DNA of 64,000 bases from an uncultured Candidatus Saccharibacteria bacterium (GTDB lineage: Bacteria > Patescibacteriota > Minisyncoccia > UBA6257). The position numbers were made by a program, and so were the translations under genes. This document shows, in pieces, positions 3,738 to 64,000 of this stretch. The notes beneath the pieces are model-generated. The model did no database searches. It saw nothing but the letters and a program-made list of their open reading frames with translations, and was not told where the DNA came from. How positions within the stretch are numbered: the first letter of the stretch is position 1; each line of letters starts with the position of its first letter. The stretch spans positions 224,001 through 288,000 of the forward strand of contig CAYZJA010000001.1 in the NCBI GenBank assembly GCA_964479005.1. Direction: 5' to 3'.

Positions 3738-4503
3738 ATCCTACAACTTGGTTTTTATCCCCACTAGTTTCTCCGGAATTCATAGCGCATAAGAGTTTAG
3801 GTTTCCATTGTTTTTTATCCGCAATATTTAATAAAATCTCAATTGATGTTTTTCCACAAGCATTACCATATTCATTAAATCGCTCAATATCATTTGCTAA
3901 TATCGCGTCAATTGTTACTTTGTCTATCATCTTTGCTTCATTATATGGTAAATAATGGCTTAAGTCAGAGCTAATCAAAAAAAGAGTTTTCTCGTCATAA
4001 ATTGATAACAAGATATCGCTAACTTTTCTATAATCAACAATATTGCCAGTTAATAAAGGAAAAATCTGAGAATCGTCTAAAACTGTTTGTAAAAATGGCA
4101 ACTGAACTTCTAATGAATGTTCTGGCTGATGAATTTCAGATGATTCAATAATTTCTTTTTTGTTTTTAAGTTTTGGAAAATCGTCTTTTGATAATATTTC
4201 TATCTTTCCTAATGGTGTTTGCCAATATTCTTTAGCGCAAGAAATAAGATTATCAAATGAAAAATGATGGCTAGGTCCCAAGAGAAAAATCTTTTCATAT
4301 GAACAATTTTCTATAAGTTTAAAAGCGTATGCGGCTATTGGACCAGAATATACATATCCTGCATGAGGAACAATAAGGGCTTTGACTGACAACTGATGTT
4401 TTTCTACTGTCGCATTATCCAAAAAACCCTTGATTTGTTGTTTTAAAATATCAGGATCATCAGGATAAAAACTACCAGATACAGTTGGATGTCTTAATTC
4501 CAT
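3712..4503 (-). CDS. MEMO1-family protein (AmmeMemoRadiSam system protein B)
   Basis: The LIVPHAGYVYSGPIAA motif of the MEMO1 family is present. Confidence 0.85.
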   Translation of the reverse strand: MELRHPTVSGSFYPDDPDILKQQIKGFLDNATVEKHQLSVKALIVPHAGYVYSGPIAAYAFKLIENCSYEKIFLLGPSHHFSFDNLISCAKEYWQTPLGKIEILSKDDFPKLKNKKEIIESSEIHQPEHSLEVQLPFLQTVLDDSQIFPLLTGNIVDYRKVSDILLSIYDEKTLFLISSDLSHYLPYNEAKMIDKVTIDAILANDIERFNEYGNACGKTSIEILLNIADKKQWKPKLLCAMNSGETSGDKNQVVGYASIAYYE

Positions 4504-5531
4504 ATTCCTTTTATTTTTGTATTACATTTTGGGCATTTCTCGTTTTTCAAATTATTTTCTAAGACTTCCATACCCCATCGTTCTATGATAAGTGAATTAC
4601 ATTTTGGGCAATAAGTACTTTCATAATCAGAATTTGGTATATTTCCAGTATAAATATATCGTAATCCAGCTTTTTTACCGATTTCACAAGCATTAATTAA
4701 AATTTCTTGGGATGTGGGCGCTTGAGTAAGCATTTTATAGCATGGATAAAAAGCAGAAATATGCCATGGCAAGTCTTTGGAAATTCCTACCAGAAATTTT
4801 GCTATTTGTTTTAGTTCTTTTGTGGAATCATTAAATCCAGGAATTACTAAAGTAGTAACTTCTATCCAAATTCCCATTTTCCAGATTTTTTTAATATTCT
4901 CTTTAACTGGCTCTAATCGTCCCTTACAAGTTTTTCGATAAAACTTTTCTGAAAAACTTTTTAAATCTATGTTAATTGCGTCAAGATAAGGCGCGATAAA
5001 ATTAAGGGTTTTTTCTGTCATAAAACCATTAGAAACCCATATATTTTTAATCCCCTCTTTTTTTGCTAATCTCATTGTATCTAAAGCGTATTCTGCCCAA
5101 ATAGTAGGTTCATTATACGTATAAGCTATAATGGGAATATTGTTTTCTTTGCAATAATTTACTATTTTTTCTGGTCCCCATTCTTCTCCATAATGTTTTA
5201 TGCCCTGAATTTTGTCAAAAGGTTTTGGGGCTTGAGAAATTTCCCAGTTTTGACAAAAATCACAATCAAAATTGCATCCTAAAGTTCCTAAAGAAAAAGC
5301 TTTCTGGCTTGGTAAAAAATGAAAAAGAGGCTTTTTTTCTATGGGATCAATATTTACACTTATAGCTTTCCCGTAAACTAAAAGATAAAGGTCGCCATTT
5401 ATATTTTGACGCACCCCACAAATTCCAATTCTTTTATTGTTAATGAGGCACTGGTTATGACAAGCCAGACATTGAACTTTATTATCCTTTAATTTTTCAT
5501 AAAGAATCGCCTTTTTCATATTTTTATACAT
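4494..5531 (-). CDS. AmmeMemoRadiSam system radical SAM enzyme
   Basis: A GCNFDCDFCQNW radical SAM cysteine motif is present, plus a C-terminal Cys cluster. The gene is translationally coupled to the MEMO1 and AMMECR1 genes. Confidence 0.85.
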   Translation of the reverse strand: MYKNMKKAILYEKLKDNKVQCLACHNQCLINNKRIGICGVRQNINGDLYLLVYGKAISVNIDPIEKKPLFHFLPSQKAFSLGTLGCNFDCDFCQNWEISQAPKPFDKIQGIKHYGEEWGPEKIVNYCKENNIPIIAYTYNEPTIWAEYALDTMRLAKKEGIKNIWVSNGFMTEKTLNFIAPYLDAINIDLKSFSEKFYRKTCKGRLEPVKENIKKIWKMGIWIEVTTLVIPGFNDSTKELKQIAKFLVGISKDLPWHISAFYPCYKMLTQAPTSQEILINACEIGKKAGLRYIYTGNIPNSDYESTYCPKCNSLIIERWGMEVLENNLKNEKCPKCNTKIKGIWN

Positions 5532-19603: not shown

Positions 19604-19915
19604 TTATTTATTTTGCTCTTTCTTCGCTGAATTAAAAATATTAGCTTCTATCTTTTTCATTATTCTTCCGCCAATAGATATATAAACGATAAAGGCTAAA
19701 ACAATTGTTGTGATTCCAGCTATCCAAGAAAAAATAAAAAACGTAGTAATAATTAATATAATCCCTAAGATAATAAGGGAATTATTCCAAATCAAAACAT
19801 TTGGTTTTTTAGATAGAATCTTCTTGGACCAAGTATTATTAACAGTAATATAGGCAATAATCAATATTGATCCTAACAATAGTAAATAAAAGATATTTCC
19901 AAAAAATTCAAACAT
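19604..19915 (-). CDS. Small membrane protein
   Basis: Three hydrophobic helices are present. No domain was recognised. Confidence 0.45.
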   Translation of the reverse strand: MFEFFGNIFYLLLLGSILIIAYITVNNTWSKKILSKKPNVLIWNNSLIILGIILIITTFFIFSWIAGITTIVLAFIVYISIGGRIMKKIEANIFNSAKKEQNK

Positions 19916-20034
19916 AGATTTATTTTAACTTCTTTCGCCACGCCTAGTACCCATTGTTTATTCTACCAAAAAATCGCCTCTTTGGCGATTTCGATGTATC
20001 TCGGTCCCTCGATAAAAAAACTAGACGGCTGGGG

Positions 20035-20075
20035 GACTAGGATTCGAACCACTCGGGTCGTCCTATTGTCCCAAC
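20035..20075 (-). other. tRNA-like fragment with a T-arm-like sequence and a T-run; no cloverleaf
   Basis: The minus strand reads GGGACAATAGGACGACCCGAGTGGTTCGAATCCTAGTCCCCCAGCC, followed by TTTTTTT. The terminal 5-bp helix GGGAC/GTCCC pairs, but the T-stem does not. Confidence 0.3.
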
Positions 20076-20729: not shown

Positions 20730-20821
<92 letters not shown>

Positions 20822-52117: not shown

Positions 52118-52882
52118 TTATTTATCTTTTTCTCCTCTTAGTAAACTTTTACCAAATCCCTCAAAAGATCTCAAAATTTCTAAAGGTACGGCAAAAATAA
52201 TGGTATTTGACTGATCAGAGCTCAAATCATTAATTGATTGAAGGGTTCTTAAATGAAGAGCGCCATTAGCTGATGATAATACGCCAGCAGCTTTAGCCAT
52301 ATTGTTTGCGGCAATTACCTCCCCTTCTGCTTTAATAATTATCGCCCTTTTCTCTCTTTCTGCTTCAGCTTGTTTACCAATTACTCTCTTCATTTCTTCT
52401 GGTAAGGTTATGTCTTTTAACTCAACGTTATTAACTTGAATCCCCCAAGGATCAGAAGCTTTATCAATAATACTTCTTATGTTTTCTGAAACTCTATCTC
52501 TTTGAGAAAGAAGTCCGTCTAAATCCACTTGACCTACAGCATCCCGCATTGTTGTTTGAGCTAATTGAGAAATAGCATAGTAAAAATTCTCTACCTCTAA
52601 AATTGCTTTATCAGCTTCTCTAACTTTATAATAAATAACTGCGTTTACACTAACTGAAATATTGTCTTTTGTAATCGCCTCTTGATTTGGCACATCCACT
52701 GCTTTTACTCTTAAATCTACTTTCTTGTAAGACTGAACAATTGGCCAAACCAATCTCCAACCAGGATTCATTAAACCAGCATATTTTCCGAACATAAACC
52801 TAATCCCTCTTTCATATTGGTTTATCTGCCTAATTGAAGATAAAAAGATAATAACGATTGCTACAATAATTATATTTGCCAT
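52118..52882 (-). CDS. SPFH/Band 7 (stomatin-like) protein
   Basis: An N-terminal TM helix plus the SPFH domain pattern is present. Confidence 0.8.
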   Translation of the reverse strand: MANIIIVAIVIIFLSSIRQINQYERGIRFMFGKYAGLMNPGWRLVWPIVQSYKKVDLRVKAVDVPNQEAITKDNISVSVNAVIYYKVREADKAILEVENFYYAISQLAQTTMRDAVGQVDLDGLLSQRDRVSENIRSIIDKASDPWGIQVNNVELKDITLPEEMKRVIGKQAEAEREKRAIIIKAEGEVIAANNMAKAAGVLSSANGALHLRTLQSINDLSSDQSNTIIFAVPLEILRSFEGFGKSLLRGEKDK

Positions 52883-53091
52883 ATTTTTTAAATTAATTTA
52901 ATGTTTAGACCTTTCATATATTCTACCCCTTCGGCAGGCTCAGGGCAAGCAAAAAATCTATGTTTATGGAAATTAAAAATCTTAAATAGTATTAGTCCTA
53001 TCCAAGAACTCGGTCCCCAATGGAATGGTGTAAATGGCATACTTTTTCCTTTATTTTATTAAATGCTACCAAAAAAAAACTGGTAGATAAT

Positions 53092-53772
53092 TTAATCTGT
53101 GTATCGTTTTTTAATATAACTTAAAATCTCTAAAGCCCCATGACGATTGCCTCTCCCAACTGGAAAGTAACAAGGCAAAACTTTGTATATCTTACCTAAA
53201 ACATTAACTGATTGAATGGGCTGATAAGAATTACCTCTGATTCTTTCCAAACAATCTTTTAGACGAATGTCTTTGCCTGCTATCATCCTTACAGGAAGCT
53301 TTCCAAAGGCAATAATATATTTTGGCAGAACTATATTTATTTCTTTTTGTAATAAGAGAAAATCTTGCTTCATTATATCTTTACTGGGGCTATCTGGATT
53401 ATATTTAGTACATTTAACTAAATTAGTGATATAGACATTATTATTTATCAAACTTTGCTCAATCCTACTTTCATCATGAATCTGCCATCCTTTTTTGTAA
53501 ATATCATCTATTATTTTTTTATCTAAAAAACCTGCTTCTGATAAAAAACGGTAGAAATAACGAACTCCTATAAAAGGATATCTTCTCTTTCCTTTATAAT
53601 CTTTATGACTTGATAGATTAAGATGGGTTGGATTAATAAAAAGAAAAAGAAATTGGGGATTTTGGAATTTACCACCACCTAAAATATGTAAAAGTGGATT
53701 ATTTTCCTTTTTACACCTCTTACAATTATCAAATTCCTTATAAATCTTTGATAACTTTTGTGGAATTTTCAT
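53092..53772 (-). CDS. Divergent uracil-DNA glycosylase superfamily protein
   Basis: CKRCKK, FLFINPT and NVYITNLVKC parallel the family 4/5 UDG motifs (GEAPG, ITNxVKC). Confidence 0.5.
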   Translation of the reverse strand: MKIPQKLSKIYKEFDNCKRCKKENNPLLHILGGGKFQNPQFLFLFINPTHLNLSSHKDYKGKRRYPFIGVRYFYRFLSEAGFLDKKIIDDIYKKGWQIHDESRIEQSLINNNVYITNLVKCTKYNPDSPSKDIMKQDFLLLQKEINIVLPKYIIAFGKLPVRMIAGKDIRLKDCLERIRGNSYQPIQSVNVLGKIYKVLPCYFPVGRGNRHGALEILSYIKKRYTD

Positions 53773-53790
53773 ATTATTTGTATTCTATCA

Positions 53791-53816
53791 AAAAATCGCC
53801 TTTAAGGCGATTTTTG
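53791..53816 (-). terminator. Terminator-like palindrome overlapping a downstream TGATAGAAT promoter
   Basis: An AAAAATCGCC-TTTAA-GGCGATTTTT perfect palindrome sits between relE-like and UDG-like genes. Confidence 0.5.
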
Positions 53817-55042: not shown

Positions 55043-55231
55043 TTATTGACTCCTCTTTTTGCCAATAGAAATGCCTAACCAGATACCAAGACCAAATAGT
55101 TCAATACCACCTAATATGGCATCGATTGTTGGTGAAAAAAAGTAACCTGTGTCGGACATTAAAAATCCAATTAATTGGACAATAACTATAACCACTATAA
55201 TTGCTATTATGATGCATGTTTGTTTTTTCAT
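55043..55231 (-). CDS. Small membrane protein
   Basis: Two TM helices are present. An upstream extended -10 TGATATAAT is also present. Confidence 0.4.
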   Translation of the reverse strand: MKKQTCIIIAIIVVIVIVQLIGFLMSDTGYFFSPTIDAILGGIELFGLGIWLGISIGKKRSQ

Positions 55232-55280
55232 AACTAAATTATATCACAAATTTGGGTCGGCGACCGAATTAGATAGCTCC

Positions 55281-55308
55281 GGGAACTGGACGATGTTAGA
55301 ACCTGTTT
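55281..55308 (-). promoter_or_regulatory. Conserved upstream motif (GGTTCTAACATCGTCCAGTTCCC on the minus strand)
   Basis: The motif is shared with 57613-57640 and partially with 57011-57027. It has the same core as the GTTCCAACATCGTTCC sites near 17-18 kb. Confidence 0.5.
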
Positions 55309-55375
55309 TATGTAGAAAAACGGGACCACCAAATTTCGTGCCAGCGAAACTAGCACGCTGCAGTTCCCCACTAAA

Positions 55376-57034: not shown

Positions 57035-57565
57035 TCAATTTAAAATTTGTCCTAAACCTTTCCAGGCTTTCAGTAAAAAATTAATTAATCCTAAATAATA
57101 TTCACTCAAAAGAAAACCAAAAAGAACACTGAGAATTGCGACTTTAATTATTAAGTGAATATTCTTAAGTTCTTGCTCTTGTTTTTCTGTCTTATATCCT
57201 CTTTTTTTATAATCAAATAACTCCGGCTTCACTTTTAACATTAGTCCGTAAATTTTTTCAAATTCTTCTTCTATCCAGTTAAACCTATCAATATCTTTCT
57301 GCACTTCTCCAAAATCAGGTATAGCTACTGAATGTTTAGTTATTTTTTCCACTAATTCCTGGTCAATAAGAAACTTAACTGTATAAACAACATCCTCTAA
57401 TGGCTCTAACGAATTTTTATTATATTTGTGAAGAGGAAGTCCCTCTTTTAATTCTTTTTCTACAAAATAATTTAAACCTTCTTCATTCAATAAACGATAA
57501 ACAAGGGCTTCTCTTTTTTCTAATAATAAATTAATAAAATCTTCGTTTATCTTCATATTATCCAT
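57035..57565 (-). CDS. Hypothetical protein with a C-terminal TM anchor
   Basis: The start ATG is directly abutted by a GGTAGAAT extended -10-like motif. Confidence 0.5.
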   Translation of the reverse strand: MDNMKINEDFINLLLEKREALVYRLLNEEGLNYFVEKELKEGLPLHKYNKNSLEPLEDVVYTVKFLIDQELVEKITKHSVAIPDFGEVQKDIDRFNWIEEEFEKIYGLMLKVKPELFDYKKRGYKTEKQEQELKNIHLIIKVAILSVLFGFLLSEYYLGLINFLLKAWKGLGQILN

Positions 57566-57684
57566 ATTCTACCAAAAAACCGCCTCTTTTACGAGACGAT
57601 TCTTCTTAAAAAAATCCGCTCTGGGAACTGGACGATGTTAGAACCTGTTTTGGATAATAAAAATCTACAACATATAGTAAATCT

Positions 57685-58547: not shown

Positions 58548-59789
58548 TTACAAAATGGGATTTTTCTTTTCTAGTAAATCCTTAACTGTGATTAGCCTTA
58601 TTTCTAACTCCTTCTTATTTTTAATCCTTGCTACTTCCTCGTAAGCACCCTTAGTAAAACTAAAAGCTACAATATAACCCTTTTTATAATTTGCCCTTTT
58701 TAGGGCAGTCTCAAAATTATCTATAACATTACGCCCTACTTTATCAGACTGCTTTACCTGTATTCCTGCTTCTTCAGTTAAAACACTCCTTGGGTAATAA
58801 CCATCTAGCCCCATATCCCCAACTTTCTTTCTGCTCGCATTAGCCCTCATTTTGTCTATCACTACCCAGTTTTGAAACTCAAAAGGTTCTAATTTTTTTA
58901 CTTCCTCTATTGTAGTCGGCATACCAATCACTTCATAATCAATACCCTCTATCGTTCCTAAAGTTTTTCCTAATCTTCGTTGCATTATCTTGATTGCTGT
59001 TGGTGAAATATCTATTCCTATCCACCTTCTACCCAATCGTTGAGCTACAGCTACTGTTGTTCCGCAACCACAAAAAGCGTCTAAAACTATATCATTTTTG
59101 TTTGAGGACGCCTCTATTATTCTTTTTAAAAGTGCTTCTGGTTTTTGGGTGGGATAACCTACTCGCTCTTCTGCCATTGGATTTATTACGGGTATATTCC
59201 ATACATCTTCCACCATTTTCCCTAACGGATTACCTTCCCACTTATAGACTTTCTTTTTTCCACCTGGTCTTCTAATAGCGACTTCGTCTTTTAGTTCTCG
59301 GCAGTATTCTTCCTTAAGACTCGGTTCATTATAATTAAAAGTCCAATTATCTCCTTTTGTATAAAAATAAATTGTATCGTGTTTTCTTGGAAACCTTGTT
59401 TTACTTTGTCCGCCGCCCTTATAAGCCCAAATAATCTCATTTCTAAAATTTTCTACCCCAAATATCTCATCTAACATAATTCTTATATGAGCGTTGGCAT
59501 GCCAATCGCAATGTATGTAAAAAGAGCCTGTAGATTTCAATATCTCATACAATGCTTGAACTCTTGGTTTAAGCCAACTAATATAATTTTCTGTTCCGCC
59601 CTCCCATCTATCTTTAAAACTTCTAATCTCCGCCTCATCGCCAAATACAACTTCATACTGTTTATGAGTAAAAAATGGCGGGTCAATATAAATCAGATCT
59701 ATACTCTCTTTAGGAAGTTTAGCTAACTCTTCTAAATTATCGCCGCAAATAAGTTTGTTAATCTGCCAAAGTTTATTCTGATTAGACAT
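58548..59789 (-). CDS. DNA methyltransferase (DPPF-motif N6-adenine/N4-cytosine class) with a ~130-aa C-terminal extension
   Basis: DPPF (motif IV) and FCGCGTT (motif I) are present in beta-class order. The C-terminus carries D...E.K-like residues (GDMGLDGYY...IQVKQ). Confidence 0.8.
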   Translation of the reverse strand: MSNQNKLWQINKLICGDNLEELAKLPKESIDLIYIDPPFFTHKQYEVVFGDEAEIRSFKDRWEGGTENYISWLKPRVQALYEILKSTGSFYIHCDWHANAHIRIMLDEIFGVENFRNEIIWAYKGGGQSKTRFPRKHDTIYFYTKGDNWTFNYNEPSLKEEYCRELKDEVAIRRPGGKKKVYKWEGNPLGKMVEDVWNIPVINPMAEERVGYPTQKPEALLKRIIEASSNKNDIVLDAFCGCGTTVAVAQRLGRRWIGIDISPTAIKIMQRRLGKTLGTIEGIDYEVIGMPTTIEEVKKLEPFEFQNWVVIDKMRANASRKKVGDMGLDGYYPRSVLTEEAGIQVKQSDKVGRNVIDNFETALKRANYKKGYIVAFSFTKGAYEEVARIKNKKELEIRLITVKDLLEKKNPIL

Positions 59790-59794
59790 AGTAG

Positions 59795-59940
59795 GGATGG
59801 GTTTTAATTTTTATGCTTATATTTACTGGCTGGAAACACAAAGCTCCCCGCCAACGACAACCTTTCGGTCGCCCTATACCTTTCGGTATAGACCCATCCC
59901 TGAGCTCTGACGAGGAGCTTAATATCAGGGATGGGTTTTT
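59795..59940 (-). promoter_or_regulatory. Structured leader upstream of the methyltransferase with three AGGGATGGGT sites
   Basis: Two direct copies (59797, 59927) and one inverted copy (59891) of AGGGATGGGT are present. Minus-strand hairpins include CTATACC-GAAA-GGTATAG and a long stem ACCCATCCCTGA/TCAGGGATGGGT. Confidence 0.45.
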
Positions 59941-60134
59941 TATGCCATATCCTATATTAGAACTTAGGCAACTTTGATTATTTAGTTTTTACAATTAAAG
60001 AATAACATAAATTGATAAAAAGGGAAGCAGAATTGTACCCTCGTTAATTATATTAATCAATCACCATTTTAGCTTTATTTAGTCATATTTTATTGCTAAA
60101 ATAGGGTTGAATAAGACATAATTATATTATTTAT

Positions 60135-62264: not shown

Positions 62265-63860
62265 ATGGAACAAATAACATCAAAAATTAAATATTTTCTT
62301 TATGCAAGAAAATCATCTGAATCTGAAGATAGACAGGTAGCTTCAATTGATTCACAAATAAAAGAATTAACTGGGGTAGCTAAGAAAGAAAAGCTAAAAA
62401 TCATTGATGTTCTCACTGAATCTCAGTCAGCAAAGGCACCAGGAAGAAGCCAGTTTAATGATATGATCCAGAGAATCTCCAAAGGAGAAGCCCAGGGAAT
62501 TTTATGTTGGAAGCTGGATAGATTAGCCAGAAACCCTATCGATGGCGGAAATATCATGTGGTTACTTCAGAGTAATACAATAAAACATATCAAAACATAC
62601 AATAGGGATTATTATCCTACTGATAATGTTTTGATGATGAGTGTAGAATTTGGCATGGCAAATCAGTTTATAAGAGATCTGAGTGAAAATACAAAGAGAG
62701 GGCTAAGAGCAAAGGCAGAAAAAGGATGGTATCCTACCTATGCCTCTTTAGGTTATATGCATAATCCTTTAAAAAGAAAAGGAGAAAAAGAAATTATTAA
62801 AGACCCGGAAAGGTTTGATCTTATAAGAAAGATATTTGATTTAATGCTTACTGGTTGCTATACACCGCCTAAAATTTTAAAAATCGCTACTGAGAAATGG
62901 GGATTAAAAAATAAGCAAGGAGGAAAAGTTGCCAGAAGTACTGTTTATAGAATACTAACTGATCCATTTTATTATGGTCAATTTGAATATCCAAAAGAAA
63001 GTGGAAATTGGTATAAGGGCAAACATAAACTTATGATAACTCTAGAAGAATATGACAAAATTCAAATTTTACTTGGGAGAAAAGGTAAACCTCGATCTAA
63101 AACGCATACTTTCGCTTTTACCGGAATGATTAGATGTAGCGAATGCGAAGCAATGATTACAGCCGAAGAAAAAATTAAAATACAAAAAAACGGAAATATT
63201 CATAAATATATTTATTATCATTGCACCAAGAAAAAAGATTCTCATTGCTCCCAAAAATCTATAGAACAAAAAGAATTAGAAAAACAAATCCTGGATATTT
63301 TGGGTGGAATTGAAATTCCTCCAGAATTTCATCAATGGGCAATGAAGTGGATACAAATTGAAAATAAAAAAGAAAGTAAAGCAAGGAACCAAATTATAGT
63401 AAACCATCAAGAAAGCTATAAAAAATGTTTAAAGAGAATTGATAATCTTATTGATATGAGATCTGCTGAGGATATAACGAAAAAAGAATTTCTGAGAAAA
63501 AAATCGGAGTTAAGTCAGGAAAAGATTCGATTAGAAGAATTACTCGCGGATACAGGAAACAGAATTAATAAACAATTAGAGAAAGCTGAGGAAGCATTTT
63601 TATTTGCTGAAAAAGCTAAAGAAAGATTTGAAAATGGAGACATCAAAGACAAAAAAGAAATTCTAACAGCCCTAGGTTCGAACCTCATTTTAAAAGATAA
63701 AAAGCTAAGTATAACAATACAAAAACCACTTTTCCTTATTGAAAAAGTGGCCAAACAGGTTAAAGCAATTAATCAAAGGTTAGAACCTCTGAAAAACCGC
63801 ATAACAAATAACGAATTGGAGGAAATCTATCTTCAAAATCCTACGTTGCTCCGCGGGTAG
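62265..63860 (+). CDS. Large serine recombinase (integrase)
   Basis: The N-terminal resolvase catalytic motif YARKSSESEDRQVASIDSQ is present. A recombinase domain, a zinc ribbon CSECEA...YYHCTKKKDSHC and a C-terminal coiled coil follow. Confidence 0.85.
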   Translation: MEQITSKIKYFLYARKSSESEDRQVASIDSQIKELTGVAKKEKLKIIDVLTESQSAKAPGRSQFNDMIQRISKGEAQGILCWKLDRLARNPIDGGNIMWLLQSNTIKHIKTYNRDYYPTDNVLMMSVEFGMANQFIRDLSENTKRGLRAKAEKGWYPTYASLGYMHNPLKRKGEKEIIKDPERFDLIRKIFDLMLTGCYTPPKILKIATEKWGLKNKQGGKVARSTVYRILTDPFYYGQFEYPKESGNWYKGKHKLMITLEEYDKIQILLGRKGKPRSKTHTFAFTGMIRCSECEAMITAEEKIKIQKNGNIHKYIYYHCTKKKDSHCSQKSIEQKELEKQILDILGGIEIPPEFHQWAMKWIQIENKKESKARNQIIVNHQESYKKCLKRIDNLIDMRSAEDITKKEFLRKKSELSQEKIRLEELLADTGNRINKQLEKAEEAFLFAEKAKERFENGDIKDKKEILTALGSNLILKDKKLSITIQKPLFLIEKVAKQVKAINQRLEPLKNRITNNELEEIYLQNPTLLRG

Positions 63861-63878
63861 GATTCGAACCTACAACCT
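63851..63878 (-). other. tRNA 3'-fragment (T-arm GTAGG-TTCGAAT-CCTAC plus acceptor strand) overlapping the recombinase stop codon
   Basis: The minus strand reads GGTTGTAGGTTCGAATCCTACCCGCGGAG. No complementary 5' acceptor strand is found within the next 90 nt. Confidence 0.45.
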
Positions 63879-64000
63879 ACTGGTTACACCTAATCTCTAA
63901 GTTTCCTTAAAGGGTGGACTATATCTTCACCTTGTCTGTTTAAAACAGATTTAGGTGTCTCGGTATCTAGTCTCTACGGCGCCCCCGTGTTATAACACAA

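What the first reader, a model, noticed from the sequence alone, without database searches (positions are those of the whole stretch)
57566..57590. Recurrent AAAGAGGCGATTTTTTGGTAGAAT element: terminator-like hairpin fused to an extended -10 that abuts start codons
Copies occur on the minus strand near 16381-16395, 17708-17732, 19960-19990, 53783-53816 and 57566-57590. A GGGGTAGAAT variant occurs at 16351 and 52919.

In three cases TGGTAGAAT or TGGTAAAAT ends 0-9 nt before the ATG (17702, 53772, 57565). That would make the mRNAs leaderless or nearly so. In 17702 the annotated ATG is exactly 7 nt downstream of TAAAAT.

Several copies also carry an ATCGCC...GGCGAT hairpin followed by the T-run, which could terminate the upstream gene. 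The 52919 copy places a 9-codon mini-ORF (MKGLNIKLI) right at the promoter.
Basis: partly seen in the sequence, partly recalled or inferred. Interest (0 to 1): 0.5.

Follow-up and report, generated by a model that had tools for sequence, protein, structure and literature searches.

The report
Terminator-promoter cassette for leaderless genes
A 30-base sequence repeated between genes of an ultra-small (CPR, Paceibacteria-like) bacterium joins a transcription-stop hairpin to a start signal placed 6-9 bases before the next gene's ATG, so the mRNA has almost no leader; the pattern is real and is kept in over 100 related environmental contigs, but it is a compact variant of known signals, not a new kind of system.

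Summary
AAAGAGGCG(A/G)TTTTTTGGTA(G/A)AAT occurs three times on the minus strand (0 expected by chance), with two looser copies.

The window comes from a roughly 550-kb Paceibacterota-like CPR genome. The exact 24-mer is also in 12 genome assemblies and 93 metagenome contigs, and in no viral contig.

Across 139 unique contexts:
- an ORF-opening ATG lies 6-9 nt after TAGAAT in 77 (p about 1e-71);
- position +7 after the -10 is A in 32 of 33 cases where the ATG does not force it;
- variation follows extended -10 rules (TGn, T1/A2/T6 fixed);
- the -35 slot reads TCGCCA at a 17-nt spacer;
- 93% of copies keep a hairpin of -7 kcal/mol or better plus T6, with register shifts, G.U pairs and a few compensatory changes.

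Shine-Dalgarno (SD) motifs are rare.

Best reading: an intrinsic terminator overlapping a sigma-70 extended -10 promoter that gives leaderless or 1-3-nt-leader mRNAs.

Corrections:
- the gene at 57565 most likely starts at 57556;
- the 52919 mini-ORF probably lies upstream of the transcription start site (TSS);
- the core belongs to a larger module copied from the 3' end and trailer of tRNA-Gln.

No RNA data exist for this lineage. Novelty: new variant of a known kind.

The parts
57566..57598 (-). C module, the copy reported. Hairpin CGTCTC (57598-57593) / loop GTAAAA / GAGGCG (57586-57581); T6 at 57579-57574; extended -10 TG at 57574-57573 plus TAGAAT at 57571-57566; -35 slot TCGTAA at 57594-57589. 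Predicted TSS A57559. Likely start codon 57556-57554.
   Evidence: (-11.2 kcal/mol, z = -4.8)
57608..57650 (-). A2 module (AAACAGGTTCTAACATCGTCCAGTTCCCAGAGC) followed by GGA and T7. It is a variant of the tRNA-Gln-3'-end-like module, and its 3' half forms a second hairpin followed by a T-run.
   Evidence: kept in orthologues L111 and L120
57035..57556 (-). Gene driven by the reported copy: 173 aa from ATG 57556, function unknown, hydrophobic C-terminus. The longest ORF starts at 57565.
19960..19989 (-). C module, exact consensus: ATCGCC / AAAGA / GGCGAT, T6, TGG, TAGAAT (19965-19960). The -35 slot reads TCGCCA with a 17-nt spacer.
   Evidence: (-9.8 kcal/mol)
19990..20050 (-). tRNA-Gln 3'-end-like fragment GGTTCGAATCCTAGTCCCCCAGC (20050-20028), then B module CGTCTAGTTTTTTTATCGAGGGACCGAGATACATCGAA (20027-19990).
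19925..19954 (-). Possible leaderless 9-codon uORF MGTRRGERS, starting 5 nt after the -10. It lies ahead of gene 19604-19915, which has a 44-nt leader and no SD.
   Evidence: kept as MGSRRGERS in L010
17710..17739 (-). C module with a decayed left arm (ATAGTC), so no stable hairpin. TGGTAAAAT with -10 at 17715-17710; ATG 17702 lies 7 nt downstream, with an in-frame TGA two codons upstream.
   Evidence: the PNPOx domain starts at residue 4; -3.3 kcal/mol
17749..17777 (-). A module, degenerate copy, upstream of the 17710 C module.
53782..53811 (-). C module variant: ATCGCC / TTAAA / GGCGAT, T6, TGATAGAAT with -10 at 53787-53782, then 9 nt, then ATG 53772 (a UDG-family gene). Predicted TSS A53775.
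   Evidence: (-11.1 kcal/mol)
16387..16403 (-). Relic of the C core (AAAGAGGCGATTTTTTG) with no visible left arm, directly upstream of a different promoter.
16357..16385 (-). D promoter: TTGCCC (16385-16380), 17-nt spacer TGAGCCTGTTAAAGGGG, TAGAAT (16362-16357), then 6 nt, then ATG 16350 of the exonuclease III gene. An in-frame TAG lies two codons upstream. Predicted TSS is the A of the ATG.
   Evidence: (the Exo_endo_phos domain starts at residue 4)
52920..52948 (-). Second D promoter: TTGCCC-17-TAGAAT. The mini-ORF ATG (52917) is only 2 nt after the -10. The main SPFH gene starts at 52882 behind a leader of about 30 nt with no SD.
55229..55312 (-). Same architecture with a different hairpin: A2 module (55312-55277), hairpin GGTCGCCGACC, TGATATAAT with -10 at 55243-55238, then 6 nt, then ATG 55231 of a 62-aa membrane peptide ORF.
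17303..17335 (-). A module standing alone, 10 nt after the stop of the PNPOx gene. It is followed by a canonical promoter TTGACT-17-TATACT, not by C.

Best explanation
The motif is the core of a compact intergenic punctuation element used by a clade of Paceibacteria-like CPR bacteria.

As RNA, AAAATCGCC-AAAGA-GGCGATTTTTT is a short GC-stem hairpin with a U-run. It ends transcription of the upstream gene or tRNA-Gln. This step is inferred.

As DNA, the same bases form a sigma-70 promoter:
- the left arm fills the -35 slot (TCGCCA, 4 of 6 matches to TTGACA) at a 17-nt spacer;
- the end of the T-run gives the TG of an extended -10, TGgTAGAAT.

RNA polymerase is predicted to start at the conserved A 7 nt after TAGAAT. 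Because the ATG sits 6-9 nt after the -10, the mRNA is leaderless or carries a 1-3-nt leader. It would then be translated without a Shine-Dalgarno interaction.

The double duty of nearly every base explains part of the unusual conservation. The rest probably reflects copying of the module. It is homologous to the 3' end, trailer, terminator and next promoter of the tRNA-Gln gene, and it now sits in front of many unrelated genes.

Shown here: the sequence pattern, its spacing, its conservation, its hairpin potential and its distribution. Inferred: promoter activity, TSS position, termination and leaderless translation.
For: - Non-random and oriented: 3 matches against 0 expected, and 5 against 0.47. 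All copies are intergenic and co-oriented with the downstream gene.
- Clade-wide: the exact 24-mer is in 17 stretches from 12 species-level CPR assemblies and in 93 metagenome stretches. It is in no viral contig. The window's GroEL is 100% identical to one on a 551-kb contig, and named relatives are Ca. Paceibacterota, Parcubacteria and Minisyncoccia.
- Spacing: of 139 unique contexts, 131 have an ORF-opening ATG within 100 nt. Of these, 77 lie at 6-9 nt (27, 17, 16 and 17 at 6, 7, 8 and 9), 1 at 5 nt and 3 at 10 nt. Binomial p = 6.6e-72.
- TSS signature: in the d=8 and d=9 classes, position 7 after the -10 is A in 32 of 33 copies, with T often at position 6.
- -10 identity: the variants seen are TAGAAT, TAAAAT and TATTAT, and TGG, TGA and TGT. 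The -35 slot reads TCGCCA, TAGTCA or TCGTCA at a 17-nt spacer.
- Start codons checked: Pfam domains begin at residue 4 for the genes at 17702 and 16350. In-frame stops lie two codons upstream of ATG 17702 and 16350 and four codons upstream of ATG 53772. Homologues fix 57556 as the start.
- No SD: most window genes lack one. Only 4 of 48 leadered C transcripts have an SD-like word. The literature reports the anti-SD motif missing in about half of Parcubacteria (PMC9297842).
- Hairpin: -9.8 to -11.2 kcal/mol. It is -7 or better in 93.5% of copies against 4.3% of controls. 85% of cells pair in register, against 38-47% when shifted. Variants include register shifts, G.U pairs and compensatory changes: ATCGTC/GACGAT and TTGTCTC/GAGACGA, and ATTGCC/GGCAAT. 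Unrelated hairpins occupy the same position elsewhere.
- Position: 114 of 131 copies follow a co-directional ORF, at a median of 89 nt after its stop. 10 of 13 tRNA-Gln genes are followed by C.
- Independent orthologues keep the architecture: L111 and L120 for the 57556 gene; L123, L125 and L126 for the UDG gene.
- Other window genes show the same extended -10 plus 6-10 nt plus ATG layout: 55231, 11848, 11560, 7235 and 5519.
Against: - No transcript data of any kind exist for this lineage. TSS, termination and leaderless translation are all inferred.
- The consensus terminator scan did not call the C hairpins. The stem is only 6 GC-rich pairs plus A:U pairs.
- Two of the five window copies (17733, 16403) lack the hairpin but keep AAAGAGGCGATTTTTT. 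The near-invariance of the right arm and loop across loci and species exceeds what a terminator or a promoter spacer normally needs.
- About 37% of copies (48 of 131) have leaders of 11-95 nt, so C is not tied to leaderless genes.
- True two-sided covariation is sparse.
- The loci were fetched by the exact motif, so the conservation figures carry ascertainment bias.
- More distant orthologues (L117, L124, L127-L129) lack the element.
Confidence: 0.65

Rival explanations
1. It is a selfish or neutral dispersed repeat, MITE/REP-like or otherwise propagated, derived from the flank of tRNA-Gln. Its promoter and terminator look is incidental.
For: - Near-identical 30-mers sit in front of unrelated genes and across 12 or more species.
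- The build is modular (A, B, C), with A homologous to the tRNA-Gln 3' end and with the same 8-nt linker.
- Copies are enriched in variable, accessory regions.
- Homology breakpoints lie within 20 nt of a module in 33% of cases, against 5% for random positions.
Against: - Orientation and the 6-9-nt spacing to start codons are strict.
- The A at +7 is conserved.
- The element is kept at orthologous genes while the flanks diverge: the 60 nt upstream are about 63% identical, the C module 96% (biased).
- It drives essential genes such as Obg and HPF.
- There are no terminal inverted repeats or target-site duplications around the A-B-C unit on direct reading of the alignments.
- The breakpoint control used random positions, not intergenic ones.
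Confidence: 0.1
2. The 6-5-6 palindrome ATCGCC-N5-GGCGAT, or the invariant AAAGAGGCGA, is the operator of a sequence-specific DNA-binding protein. That protein could be a global repressor or activator overlapping the -35 and spacer, and it would define a regulon.
For: - The palindrome is perfect and centred near -28, over the -35 slot and spacer.
- The right arm and loop are conserved beyond structural need, even where the left arm is lost.
- A second promoter class, D, also has a conserved spacer.
Against: - Left arms pair in different registers, use G.U pairs and show compensatory changes. These preserve an RNA hairpin, not a DNA half-site.
- Unrelated hairpins occupy the same place.
- Downstream genes are functionally heterogeneous: Obg, HPF, transporters, UDG, GNAT and unknowns.
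- No candidate regulator was identified.
Confidence: 0.1
3. It is not a promoter. Transcription comes from upstream, and the U-run plus GGUAGAAU acts inside a polycistronic mRNA as an SD-independent ribosome-loading or processing signal at a fixed distance from the AUG.
For: - SD motifs are rare.
- The anti-SD motif is reported missing in many Parcubacteria.
- The distance to the ATG is fixed.
- 114 of 131 copies follow a co-directional gene.
Against: - The variation pattern is that of a -10 hexamer (T1, A2 and T6 fixed, third base free) plus TGn. It is not that of a pairing motif.
- A proper -35 appears exactly when TG is absent, as in the D promoters.
- A hairpin plus U6 immediately upstream would terminate rather than pass transcripts.
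- The 16S 3' end could not be examined, because no rRNA is held in the window or the loci.
Confidence: 0.07
4. The modules mark boundaries of mobile single-gene cassettes. The tRNA-Gln-like A module acts as an attachment site, and C is carried along as the cassette's own promoter.
For: - L078 carries a 5.66-kb multi-gene insertion, relative to L106, exactly between ...CCCCAGC and the linker plus C. The insertion has internal A modules.
- Between the window and L010, only the unit of tRNA-Gln-like fragment, C and gene 19604-19915 is shared, and the flanks differ.
- Arrays of gene-A-gene-A follow tRNA-Ser.
Against: - No integrase lies in or next to the arrays examined.
- There is no duplicated att core at the right junction.
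- C also precedes core genes and real tRNA-Gln loci.
- Only one clean insertion polymorphism was found.
Confidence: 0.08

Closest known systems
Promoters of leaderless genes in Deinococcus, Mycobacterium and other Actinobacteria (a -10 box a few nt upstream of the start codon; GeneMarkS-2 'group C' genomes, from my own knowledge; D. deserti: PMC4007540)
   Same: - A TAnnnT -10 box sits a fixed 6-9 nt before an ATG with no SD.
- Very short (1-3 nt) leaders are included. PMC4007540 reports that such mRNAs are translated.
   Different: - The lineage here is a CPR/Paceibacteria-like one, for which I found no report.
- The promoter is an extended -10 with an invariant T-run.
- It physically overlaps the upstream terminator.
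- One 30-nt version recurs almost unchanged at many loci and in many species.
- No TSS data exist.
Extended -10 (TGn) sigma-70/sigma-A promoters, as in Gram-positive bacteria (own knowledge)
   Same: - TG lies one base upstream of the -10.
- The -35 is weak or dispensable, and a proper -35 (TTGCCC) appears where TG is missing.
   Different: The spacer sequence is itself conserved, because it forms the 3' arm and U-run of a hairpin.
Intrinsic (Rho-independent) terminators, including A-tract/T-tract bidirectional ones (own knowledge)
   Same: - A GC-rich stem with a 5-6-nt loop is followed by T6 and preceded by an A-tract.
- It lies downstream of co-directional genes and of tRNA-Gln.
   Different: - The stem is short.
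- The sequence, not only the structure, is conserved.
- The U-run doubles as the upstream part of the next promoter.
- Activity is untested.
Putative mobile promoters / promoter propagation (Matus-Garcia et al. 2012, PMC3488235; Nijveen et al. 2012, PMC3575422)
   Same: Highly similar promoter sequences lie upstream of non-homologous genes within and between genomes.
   Different: - The unit here includes a terminator and a tRNA-Gln-derived upstream module.
- No link to IS elements was seen.
- The mechanism of spread is unknown.
Small intergenic repeats with regulatory side-effects (Correia elements, REP/BIME, RUP/BOX; own knowledge)
   Same: They are short, multi-copy and intergenic, and can carry promoter or terminator activity.
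   Different: - No terminal inverted repeats or target duplications were seen.
- Orientation is always tied to the downstream gene.
- Copy number is modest: 5 in 64 kb.
Integron attC sites and cassette arrays (own knowledge)
   Same: Co-oriented single-gene units are separated by a recurring site of about 30 nt (A). One multi-cassette insertion lies next to a tRNA.
   Different: - No adjacent integrase was found.
- A lacks the paired inverted core sites of attC.
- The cassettes have their own promoters.

Membership tests
Sigma-70 extended -10 promoter | A -10 hexamer of the TAnnnT type with T1, A2 and T6 most conserved | tested here: met
   TAGAAT, TAAAAT and TATTAT are the only variants among 38 or more copies.
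Sigma-70 extended -10 promoter | TG dinucleotide one base upstream of the -10, with the third base free | tested here: met
   TGG, TGA and TGT all occur. The scan flags 'TG yes' at 19988-19960 and 17738-17710.
Sigma-70 extended -10 promoter | -35-like hexamer at 16-18 nt, optional for this class | tested here: met
   TCGCCA, TAGTCA or TCGTCA (4 of 6 matches) at 17 nt.
Sigma-70 extended -10 promoter | Transcription initiates 6-8 nt downstream of the -10 | not testable with these tools
   Only indirect evidence: A at +7 in 32 of 33 unconstrained cases.
Leaderless (or near-leaderless) mRNA gene | The start codon lies where the TSS is expected, with the -10 ending 6-9 nt upstream | tested here: met
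   77 of 131 contexts, p = 6.6e-72. Window genes: 16350 (6 nt), 17702 (7), 53772 (9), 57556 (9), 55231 (6).
Leaderless (or near-leaderless) mRNA gene | No Shine-Dalgarno sequence between promoter and start | tested here: met
   Six to nine A/T-rich bases leave no room for one. Only 4 of 48 leadered copies have an SD-like word.
Leaderless (or near-leaderless) mRNA gene | The start codon is correctly assigned | tested here: met
   Domain alignments start at residue 4. In-frame stops lie two to four codons upstream. Homologues fix 57556.
Leaderless (or near-leaderless) mRNA gene | The mRNA 5' end is at or within a few nt of the AUG, and it is translated | not testable with these tools
   No RNA or proteomic data are held. 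The only CPR TSS set I found is for Nanosynbacter lyticus.
Intrinsic terminator | Stable GC-rich hairpin immediately followed by a U-run | tested here: met
   -9.8 to -11.2 kcal/mol plus T6. 93.5% of 139 copies reach -7 kcal/mol or better.
Intrinsic terminator | Called by a consensus terminator scan | tested here: not met
   The scan did not list the C hairpins. Probably the A:T extension of the stem uses up the T-run in its rule.
Intrinsic terminator | The structure, not the sequence, is preserved (covariation) | tested here: inconclusive
   Register shifts, G.U pairs and a few compensatory pairs occur. Most copies are simply identical.
Intrinsic terminator | Transcripts end in the U-run | not testable with these tools
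   No 3'-end data.
Putative mobile promoter | Near-identical promoter upstream of non-homologous genes, in more than one genome | tested here: met
MITE / REP-type repeat | Terminal inverted repeats and target-site duplication, or REP-type GTAG-headed palindromes with a RAYT gene | tested here: not met
   The A-B-C alignment shows no TIRs or TSDs. GTAG lies 3' of the palindrome as part of the -10. No transposase was seen near the copies.
Integron attC / cassette array | Adjacent integron integrase, and attC with paired inverted core sites (RYYYAAC...GTTRRRY) | tested here: not met
   No tyrosine recombinase lies next to the arrays. A has a direct GTTCCA-N5-GTTCCA repeat, not inverted cores.
DNA uptake sequence (DUS/USS) | About one copy per kb, in both orientations and also within genes | tested here: not met
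   4-5 copies in 64 kb, all intergenic and all gene-oriented.
Known RNA family (Rfam) | Match to a curated covariance model | tested here: not met
   Nothing lies on the A, B or C modules at gathering score or at E up to 1.

The most novel reading that the evidence does not exclude
The A-(B)-C modules are the junctions of a site-specific gene-cassette system in Paceibacteria.

In this reading, a mimic of the tRNA-Gln 3' end (A) serves as the attachment site for a recombinase acting in trans. Single genes, or blocks of genes, are inserted exactly at the tRNA-like 3' terminus. Each unit is insulated and expressed by its own terminator and leaderless-promoter core (C).

This would be an integron-like way of shuffling accessory genes in ultra-small genomes.
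Probability: 0.1. Interest if true: 0.75.

Novelty: new variant of a known kind. Interest (0 to 1): 0.45.

Why it matters
CPR/Patescibacteria make up a large share of bacterial diversity, yet almost nothing is known about how they start and stop transcription or start translation. Part of the Parcubacteria is reported to lack the anti-SD sequence (PMC9297842).

This element gives three things:
- a concrete, testable promoter consensus (TCGCCA, 17 nt, TGgTAGAAT, TSS at +7);
- evidence that leaderless or 1-3-nt-leader mRNAs are a regular mode of expression in a Paceibacteria-like clade;
- an example of extreme signal compaction, in which one 30-mer serves as terminator, -35, spacer and extended -10.

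Practical uses:
- correcting start codons in MAG annotation, for example 57556 instead of 57565 and 5519 instead of 5531;
- designing expression cassettes for future genetics in these organisms;
- using the motif as a marker for binning. One hit sits in a MAG labelled Methanosarcinales, and the motif otherwise occurs only in CPR assemblies, so that contig may be a mis-binned CPR contig.

Tried and rejected
- **DNA-uptake-sequence idea.** Rejected. There are only 4-5 copies per 64 kb, and all are gene-oriented.
- **Phage origin.** The 30-mer is absent from viral contigs.
- **Duplication of the neighbouring tRNA-Ser 3' end as an att site.** Rejected. The fragment at 20050-20028 matches tRNA-Gln, not the tRNA-Ser at 20732-20821.
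- **Integrase near the arrays.** None was found in the window at 13-21 kb, in L078 or in L106. The only recombinase in the window is a large serine recombinase at 62265-63860.
- **GGUAG as an altered SD.** This could not be tested, because no 16S rRNA is in the window or the 110 loci then held. The variation pattern argues against it.
- **Orthologue identity comparison.** It shows the C module at 96% against 62-64% for the upstream flank. I discount it because both members of each pair were selected for carrying the motif.
- **Breakpoint enrichment at modules.** This is suggestive only, because the control was random positions rather than intergenic ones.
- **The over-represented 12-mer TGCCCAAAATGT.** It reads as the codons Cys-Pro-Lys-Cys, so it looks like a coding motif unrelated to the finding.
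- **Rfam, at gathering score and at E up to 1.** Nothing matched the modules.
- **Literature searches** for leaderless or promoter motifs in CPR, and for the sequence itself, found nothing relevant.
Full report
**1. The observation**

The minus strand at 57566-57589 reads AAAGAGGCGGTTTTTTGGTAGAAT and is followed directly by ATGGATAATATGAAG.

- A search for the 24-mer consensus with up to 3 mismatches finds three copies: 19960-19983 exact, and 17710-17733 and 57566-57589 with one mismatch each. None occurs in 100 dinucleotide-preserving shuffles.
- The shorter core GAGGCGATTTTTT has five hits against 0.47 expected. The two extra hits are 16388-16400 and 53790-53802.
- TGGTAGAAT alone is close to chance, so the signal lies in the longer word.
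- All copies are on the minus strand, intergenic, and upstream of minus-strand ORFs.

**2. Source organism**

The window has about 30% G+C. Its GroEL is 100% identical to a protein on a 551,616-nt contig. Named relatives at 73-81% identity are Candidatus Paceibacterota, Parcubacteria and Minisyncoccia. So this is a CPR/Patescibacteria genome of roughly 0.55 Mb.

- Most genes in the window have A/T-rich upstream regions without a Shine-Dalgarno (SD) word. Only a handful carry GGAGG.
- This agrees with the report that the anti-SD motif is missing in about half of Parcubacteria (Tsurumaki et al. 2022, PMC9297842).
- No rRNA is in the window or in the 110 loci then held, so I could not read this lineage's 16S 3' end.

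**3. Distribution**

- The exact 24-mer occurs in 17 stretches from 12 species-representative assemblies. Eleven are labelled as CPR-type or unclassified bacteria. The twelfth is a Methanosarcinales MAG, perhaps a mis-binned contig.
- It occurs in 93 stretches of JGI metagenome contigs.
- The 30-mer occurs in no IMG/VR viral contig.
- One 484-kb contig (CAZUBI010000001.1) holds at least seven exact copies. It is a close relative of the window: 93% nucleotide identity over the one shared gene.

**4. Anatomy**

Alignment of the copies with their flanks gives the 30-nt core C: ATCGCC AAAGA GGCGAT TTTTT GG TAGAAT.

The hairpin:
- It folds at -9.8 to -11.2 kcal/mol, and the A-tract upstream extends the stem into the T-run.
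- Among 139 unique contexts, 93.5% fold at -7 kcal/mol or better, against 4.3% when the left flank is shuffled.
- 85% of cells pair in register, against 38-47% when the partner is shifted.

The left arm is not fixed:
- The reported copy, L002, L009 and L111 pair as CG(T/C)CTC/GAGGCG in a shifted register.
- L005 and L111 use G.U pairs.
- ATCGTC/GACGAT, ATTGCC/GGCAAT and TTGTCTC/GAGACGA are compensated variants.
- At the orthologous site of the reported gene, L120 has AAAATCGCC-TTTTT-GGCGATTTT where the window has ATCGTCTC-GTAAAA-GAGGCGGT.
- Unrelated hairpins also sit directly before T6 plus the extended -10. One is GGTCGCCGACC before TGATATAAT at 55260 in the window.

This behaviour fits an RNA hairpin better than a protein-binding DNA palindrome.

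**5. Promoter reading**

- Taking TAGAAT as -12 to -7, TG lies at -15/-14 (an extended -10) and the T-run at -21 to -16.
- The hexamer 17 nt upstream is TCGCCA (or TAGTCA, TCGTCA), 4 of 6 matches to TTGACA. The consensus scan lists 19988-19960 and 17738-17710 as such, with 'TG yes'.
- Variation obeys -10 rules. Only TAGAAT, TAAAAT and TATTAT occur, and TGG, TGA and TGT all occur.
- The 'GGGGTAGAAT variant' at 16357 and 52920 lacks TG. Exactly there a good -35 (TTGCCC) appears at 17 nt.
- That second class, D, recurs in other genomes, for example before Obg in L016 and L025.

**6. Leaderless spacing**

Pooling the window and the 110 loci then held (718 kb) gives 139 unique contexts. In 131 an ORF-opening ATG lies within 100 nt.

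| Distance from -10 to ATG | 5 | 6 | 7 | 8 | 9 | 10 |
|---|---|---|---|---|---|---|
| Contexts | 1 | 27 | 17 | 16 | 17 | 3 |

- That is 77 of 131 at 6-9 nt, binomial p = 6.6e-72 against a uniform expectation.
- In the 8- and 9-nt classes the ATG does not dictate the base, yet position 7 after the -10 is A in 32 of 33 cases, often preceded by T.
- This is the expected pyrimidine-purine start site 7 nt after a -10. The predicted mRNAs therefore begin AUG, (N)AUG, AUAUG or AAUAUG.

The start codons are sound:
- Pfam domains begin at residue 4 for the genes at 17702 and 16350.
- In-frame stops lie two codons upstream of ATG 17702 and 16350, and four codons upstream of ATG 53772.
- For the reported gene, four of six homologues begin MKIN, which is ATG 57556. 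The first ATG is missing in L120. So the true spacing there is 9 nt, not 0.
- The mini-ORF at 52917 starts only 2 nt after the -10 and is probably not in the transcript.

Of the 48 copies with leaders of 11 nt or more, only 4 have an SD-like word.

**7. Tests free of motif ascertainment**

I retrieved orthologues through protein identity, not through the motif.

For the 57556 gene:
- L111 (64-69% aa identity) and L120 (83%) keep the A2 module, hairpin, T6, TGn-TAGAAT and 9 nt before the ATG.
- L117 (53%) does not.

For the UDG-family gene at 53772:

| Locus | aa identity | Upstream architecture |
|---|---|---|
| L123 | 87% | GAGGTGATTTTTTGGTAGAAT + 9 nt |
| L125 | 67% | TTTTTTGCTAAAAT + 6 nt |
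| L126 | 66% | TGTTAGAAT + 7 nt |
| four others | 58-70% | no recognisable element |

So the leaderless extended -10 layout outlives the particular C sequence, and C itself is confined to a clade.

Inside the window, other real gene starts show the same layout without C: 55231, 11848, 11560, 7235 and 5519.

**8. Terminator reading**

- 114 of 131 copies follow a co-directional ORF, at a median of 89 nt after its stop. This matches the strong strand bias of these genomes and is consistent rather than diagnostic.
- 10 of 13 tRNA-Gln genes in the loci are followed by C, at 7-8 nt or at 33-36 nt when module B intervenes.
- The consensus terminator scan did not list the C hairpins. I take this as a limit of its rule, but it counts against the reading.
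- Two window copies (17733, 16403) have lost the left arm. In both cases the upstream gene has its own strong terminator.

**9. The larger element**

Upstream of C there is often module A (GGTTCCAACATCGTTCCATAGCCCCAGC, or the A2 variant CAGGTTCTAACATCGTCCAGTTCCCAGAGC). A typical gap of 8 nt (AAATTAGA) follows. Sometimes the 38-nt module B lies between them.

- nhmmer finds 216 C, 146 A and 26 B copies in the pooled DNA. 85 C copies have an A upstream.
- A is a relative of the 3' end of tRNA-Gln. Genuine tRNA-Gln genes end ...GGTTCGAATCC..CCC.GCAGC and are followed by the same AAATTAGA linker and C, or by B and C.
- Several tRNA-Ser genes are followed by a tRNA-Gln 3' fragment and then C. In the window, a tRNA-Gln fragment followed by B and C lies at 20050-19960, some 680 nt downstream of the tRNA-Ser gene, after a DnaQ-like exonuclease gene.
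- So the unit A-linker-C is a copy of the tRNA-Gln 3' end, trailer, terminator and next promoter.
- A also occurs without C. At 17335-17303 and 18456-18423 it is followed by a canonical TTGACT-17-TATA(C/T)T promoter and a conserved structured leader.

Genes behind C are a mix:
- housekeeping: Obg, HPF, MgtE-like and CDF transporters;
- accessory: UDG family, PNPOx-like, GNAT, Nudix and unknowns.

**10. Mobility hints**

- Between the window and its close relative, only the tRNA-Gln-like fragment, C and gene 19604-19915 are shared. Both flanks differ.
- L078 differs from L106 by a 5.66-kb block inserted exactly between ...CCCCAGC and the linker plus C. The block holds SIR2-like, Nudix, GNAT-like and unknown genes, has internal A modules and has no integrase.
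- Homology breakpoints fall within 20 nt of a module in 33% of cases, against 5% for random positions. That control is weak.
- The reported copy lies in a probable island at 52-64 kb. The island holds a methylase/Mrr fusion, HicA-like and ParE-like genes and a large serine recombinase next to a tRNA-like 3' end. Its orthologue in L111-L113 also neighbours a serine recombinase.
- These facts keep a cassette or propagation component alive. They do not establish a mechanism.

**11. Comparison with known systems**

- The working model combines three textbook parts: an intrinsic terminator, an extended -10 promoter and leaderless initiation.
- Leaderless genes with a -10 box a few bases before the start codon are well documented in Deinococcus. 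There 60% of mRNAs are leaderless, and very short leaders are also translated (PMC4007540). They are also known in Actinobacteria (own knowledge).
- Near-identical promoters before unrelated genes are known as putative mobile promoters (PMC3488235, PMC3575422).
- I found no description of promoter motifs, leaderless genes or this sequence in CPR. The only CPR TSS set found in my searches, listed in PMC12641261, is for Nanosynbacter lyticus.
- Rfam has no matching family.
- What is unusual is the physical overlap of all signals in one 30-mer, its near-invariance across many loci and at least 12 species, and its descent from the flank of tRNA-Gln.

**12. Unexplained**

The right arm and loop (AAAGAGGCGA) stay constant even where the left arm changes register or is lost. 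Neither a terminator nor a promoter spacer needs that. Repeated copying, gene conversion or a sequence-specific factor could each account for it. I cannot choose between them.

**13. Verdict**

- The best explanation is a terminator overlapping an extended -10 promoter for leaderless or near-leaderless mRNAs. My confidence is about 0.65.
- It is a new variant of known kinds, in a lineage where such signals were undescribed. Interest is 0.45.

Noticed in passing
window 17107-17335 (-), 18236-18456 (-); L007 1821-2049: A repeat of about 220 nt, 80-83% identical between copies. It consists of module A, a canonical promoter TTGACT-17-TATA(C/T)T and a conserved structured leader, followed by an SD (AAAGGGAGG). 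The leader has a hairpin ATATCCTGTAATAGGATAT plus T5 and a long stem TATAACTGATCA/TGGTTAGTTATA. The repeat lies ahead of small genes with no Pfam match (16504-17109, 17838-18251). It has no Rfam hit. It could be an attenuator, a riboswitch-like leader or an sRNA.
   Followed up: partly
window 63850-64000 (-) and 62265-63860 (+): A tRNA 3'-exon-like end (GTAGGTTCGAATCCTACCCGCGGAGCA) is preceded by a weak group I intron match (RF00028, E = 1.3e-4), cut off by the window end. A 531-aa large serine recombinase gene ends right against it. This looks like an integrated element at an intron-containing tRNA. The element would span about 52-64 kb and carry a methylase/Mrr fusion, HicA-like and ParE-like genes and two UDG-family genes.
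   Followed up: partly
window 59856-59970 (-): A LOOT RNA (RF03000, 72 bits, above the gathering score) lies immediately upstream of the N6/N4 methylase-Mrr fusion gene at 58548-59789.
   Followed up: no
L078 1802-7463 versus L106 4274-4281: A 5.66-kb multi-gene insertion downstream of tRNA-Ser(cga). It sits exactly between a tRNA-Gln-like 3' fragment (...CCCCAGC) and the linker plus C module. It has internal A modules and no recombinase. Module B looks like the joined ends of such an insertion.
   Followed up: partly
window 19925-19954 (-); L010: A nine-codon uORF, MGTRRGERS (MGSRRGERS in the relative), starts 5 nt after the -10 of the exact C copy. It ends 9 nt before the SD-less main ORF at 19915. 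This may be a leaderless uORF with reinitiation.
   Followed up: partly
window upstream of 754 (+), 35403 (+), 41002 (-): A recurrent motif AGAACC-(hairpin)-AGAACCTTGTT(T/A)TTC lies 15-25 nt before start codons, including that of the PBP transpeptidase gene. It is unrelated to C. Its function is unknown.
   Followed up: no
window 45.2-47.6 kb (-): Several small genes in this stretch have AGGTCG a short distance upstream, in one case after a TATAAT-like box (for example TTGCTATAATTAGAATAATTGAAAGGTCGAG before 47535). The genes were not annotated here. This may be a shared leader motif.
   Followed up: no
window 4494-5531 (-): The longest ORF starts inside TGGTATAAT (ATG 5531). An in-frame ATG at 5519 lies 10 nt after that -10 (MKKAI...), so the annotated start is probably 4 codons too long.
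   Followed up: partly
L004 (CAYWLA010000078.1): A contig binned as 'uncultured Methanosarcinales archaeon' carries three A/C modules typical of the CPR clade. It is probably a mis-binned contig of a Paceibacteria-like bacterium. Some members of this group are reported to live on methanogens (PMC10936435 abstract).
   Followed up: no
L043 and L059: Three exact copies of the 24-mer lie about 595 nt apart, which suggests tandemly duplicated small genes, each with its own C promoter.
   Followed up: no
L050, L099: The C hairpin is flanked by a promoter-like module on both sides: C on one strand and a D-like TTGCC(T/C)TGAGC on the other. The A-tract/T-tract hairpin may therefore serve both directions.
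   Followed up: no
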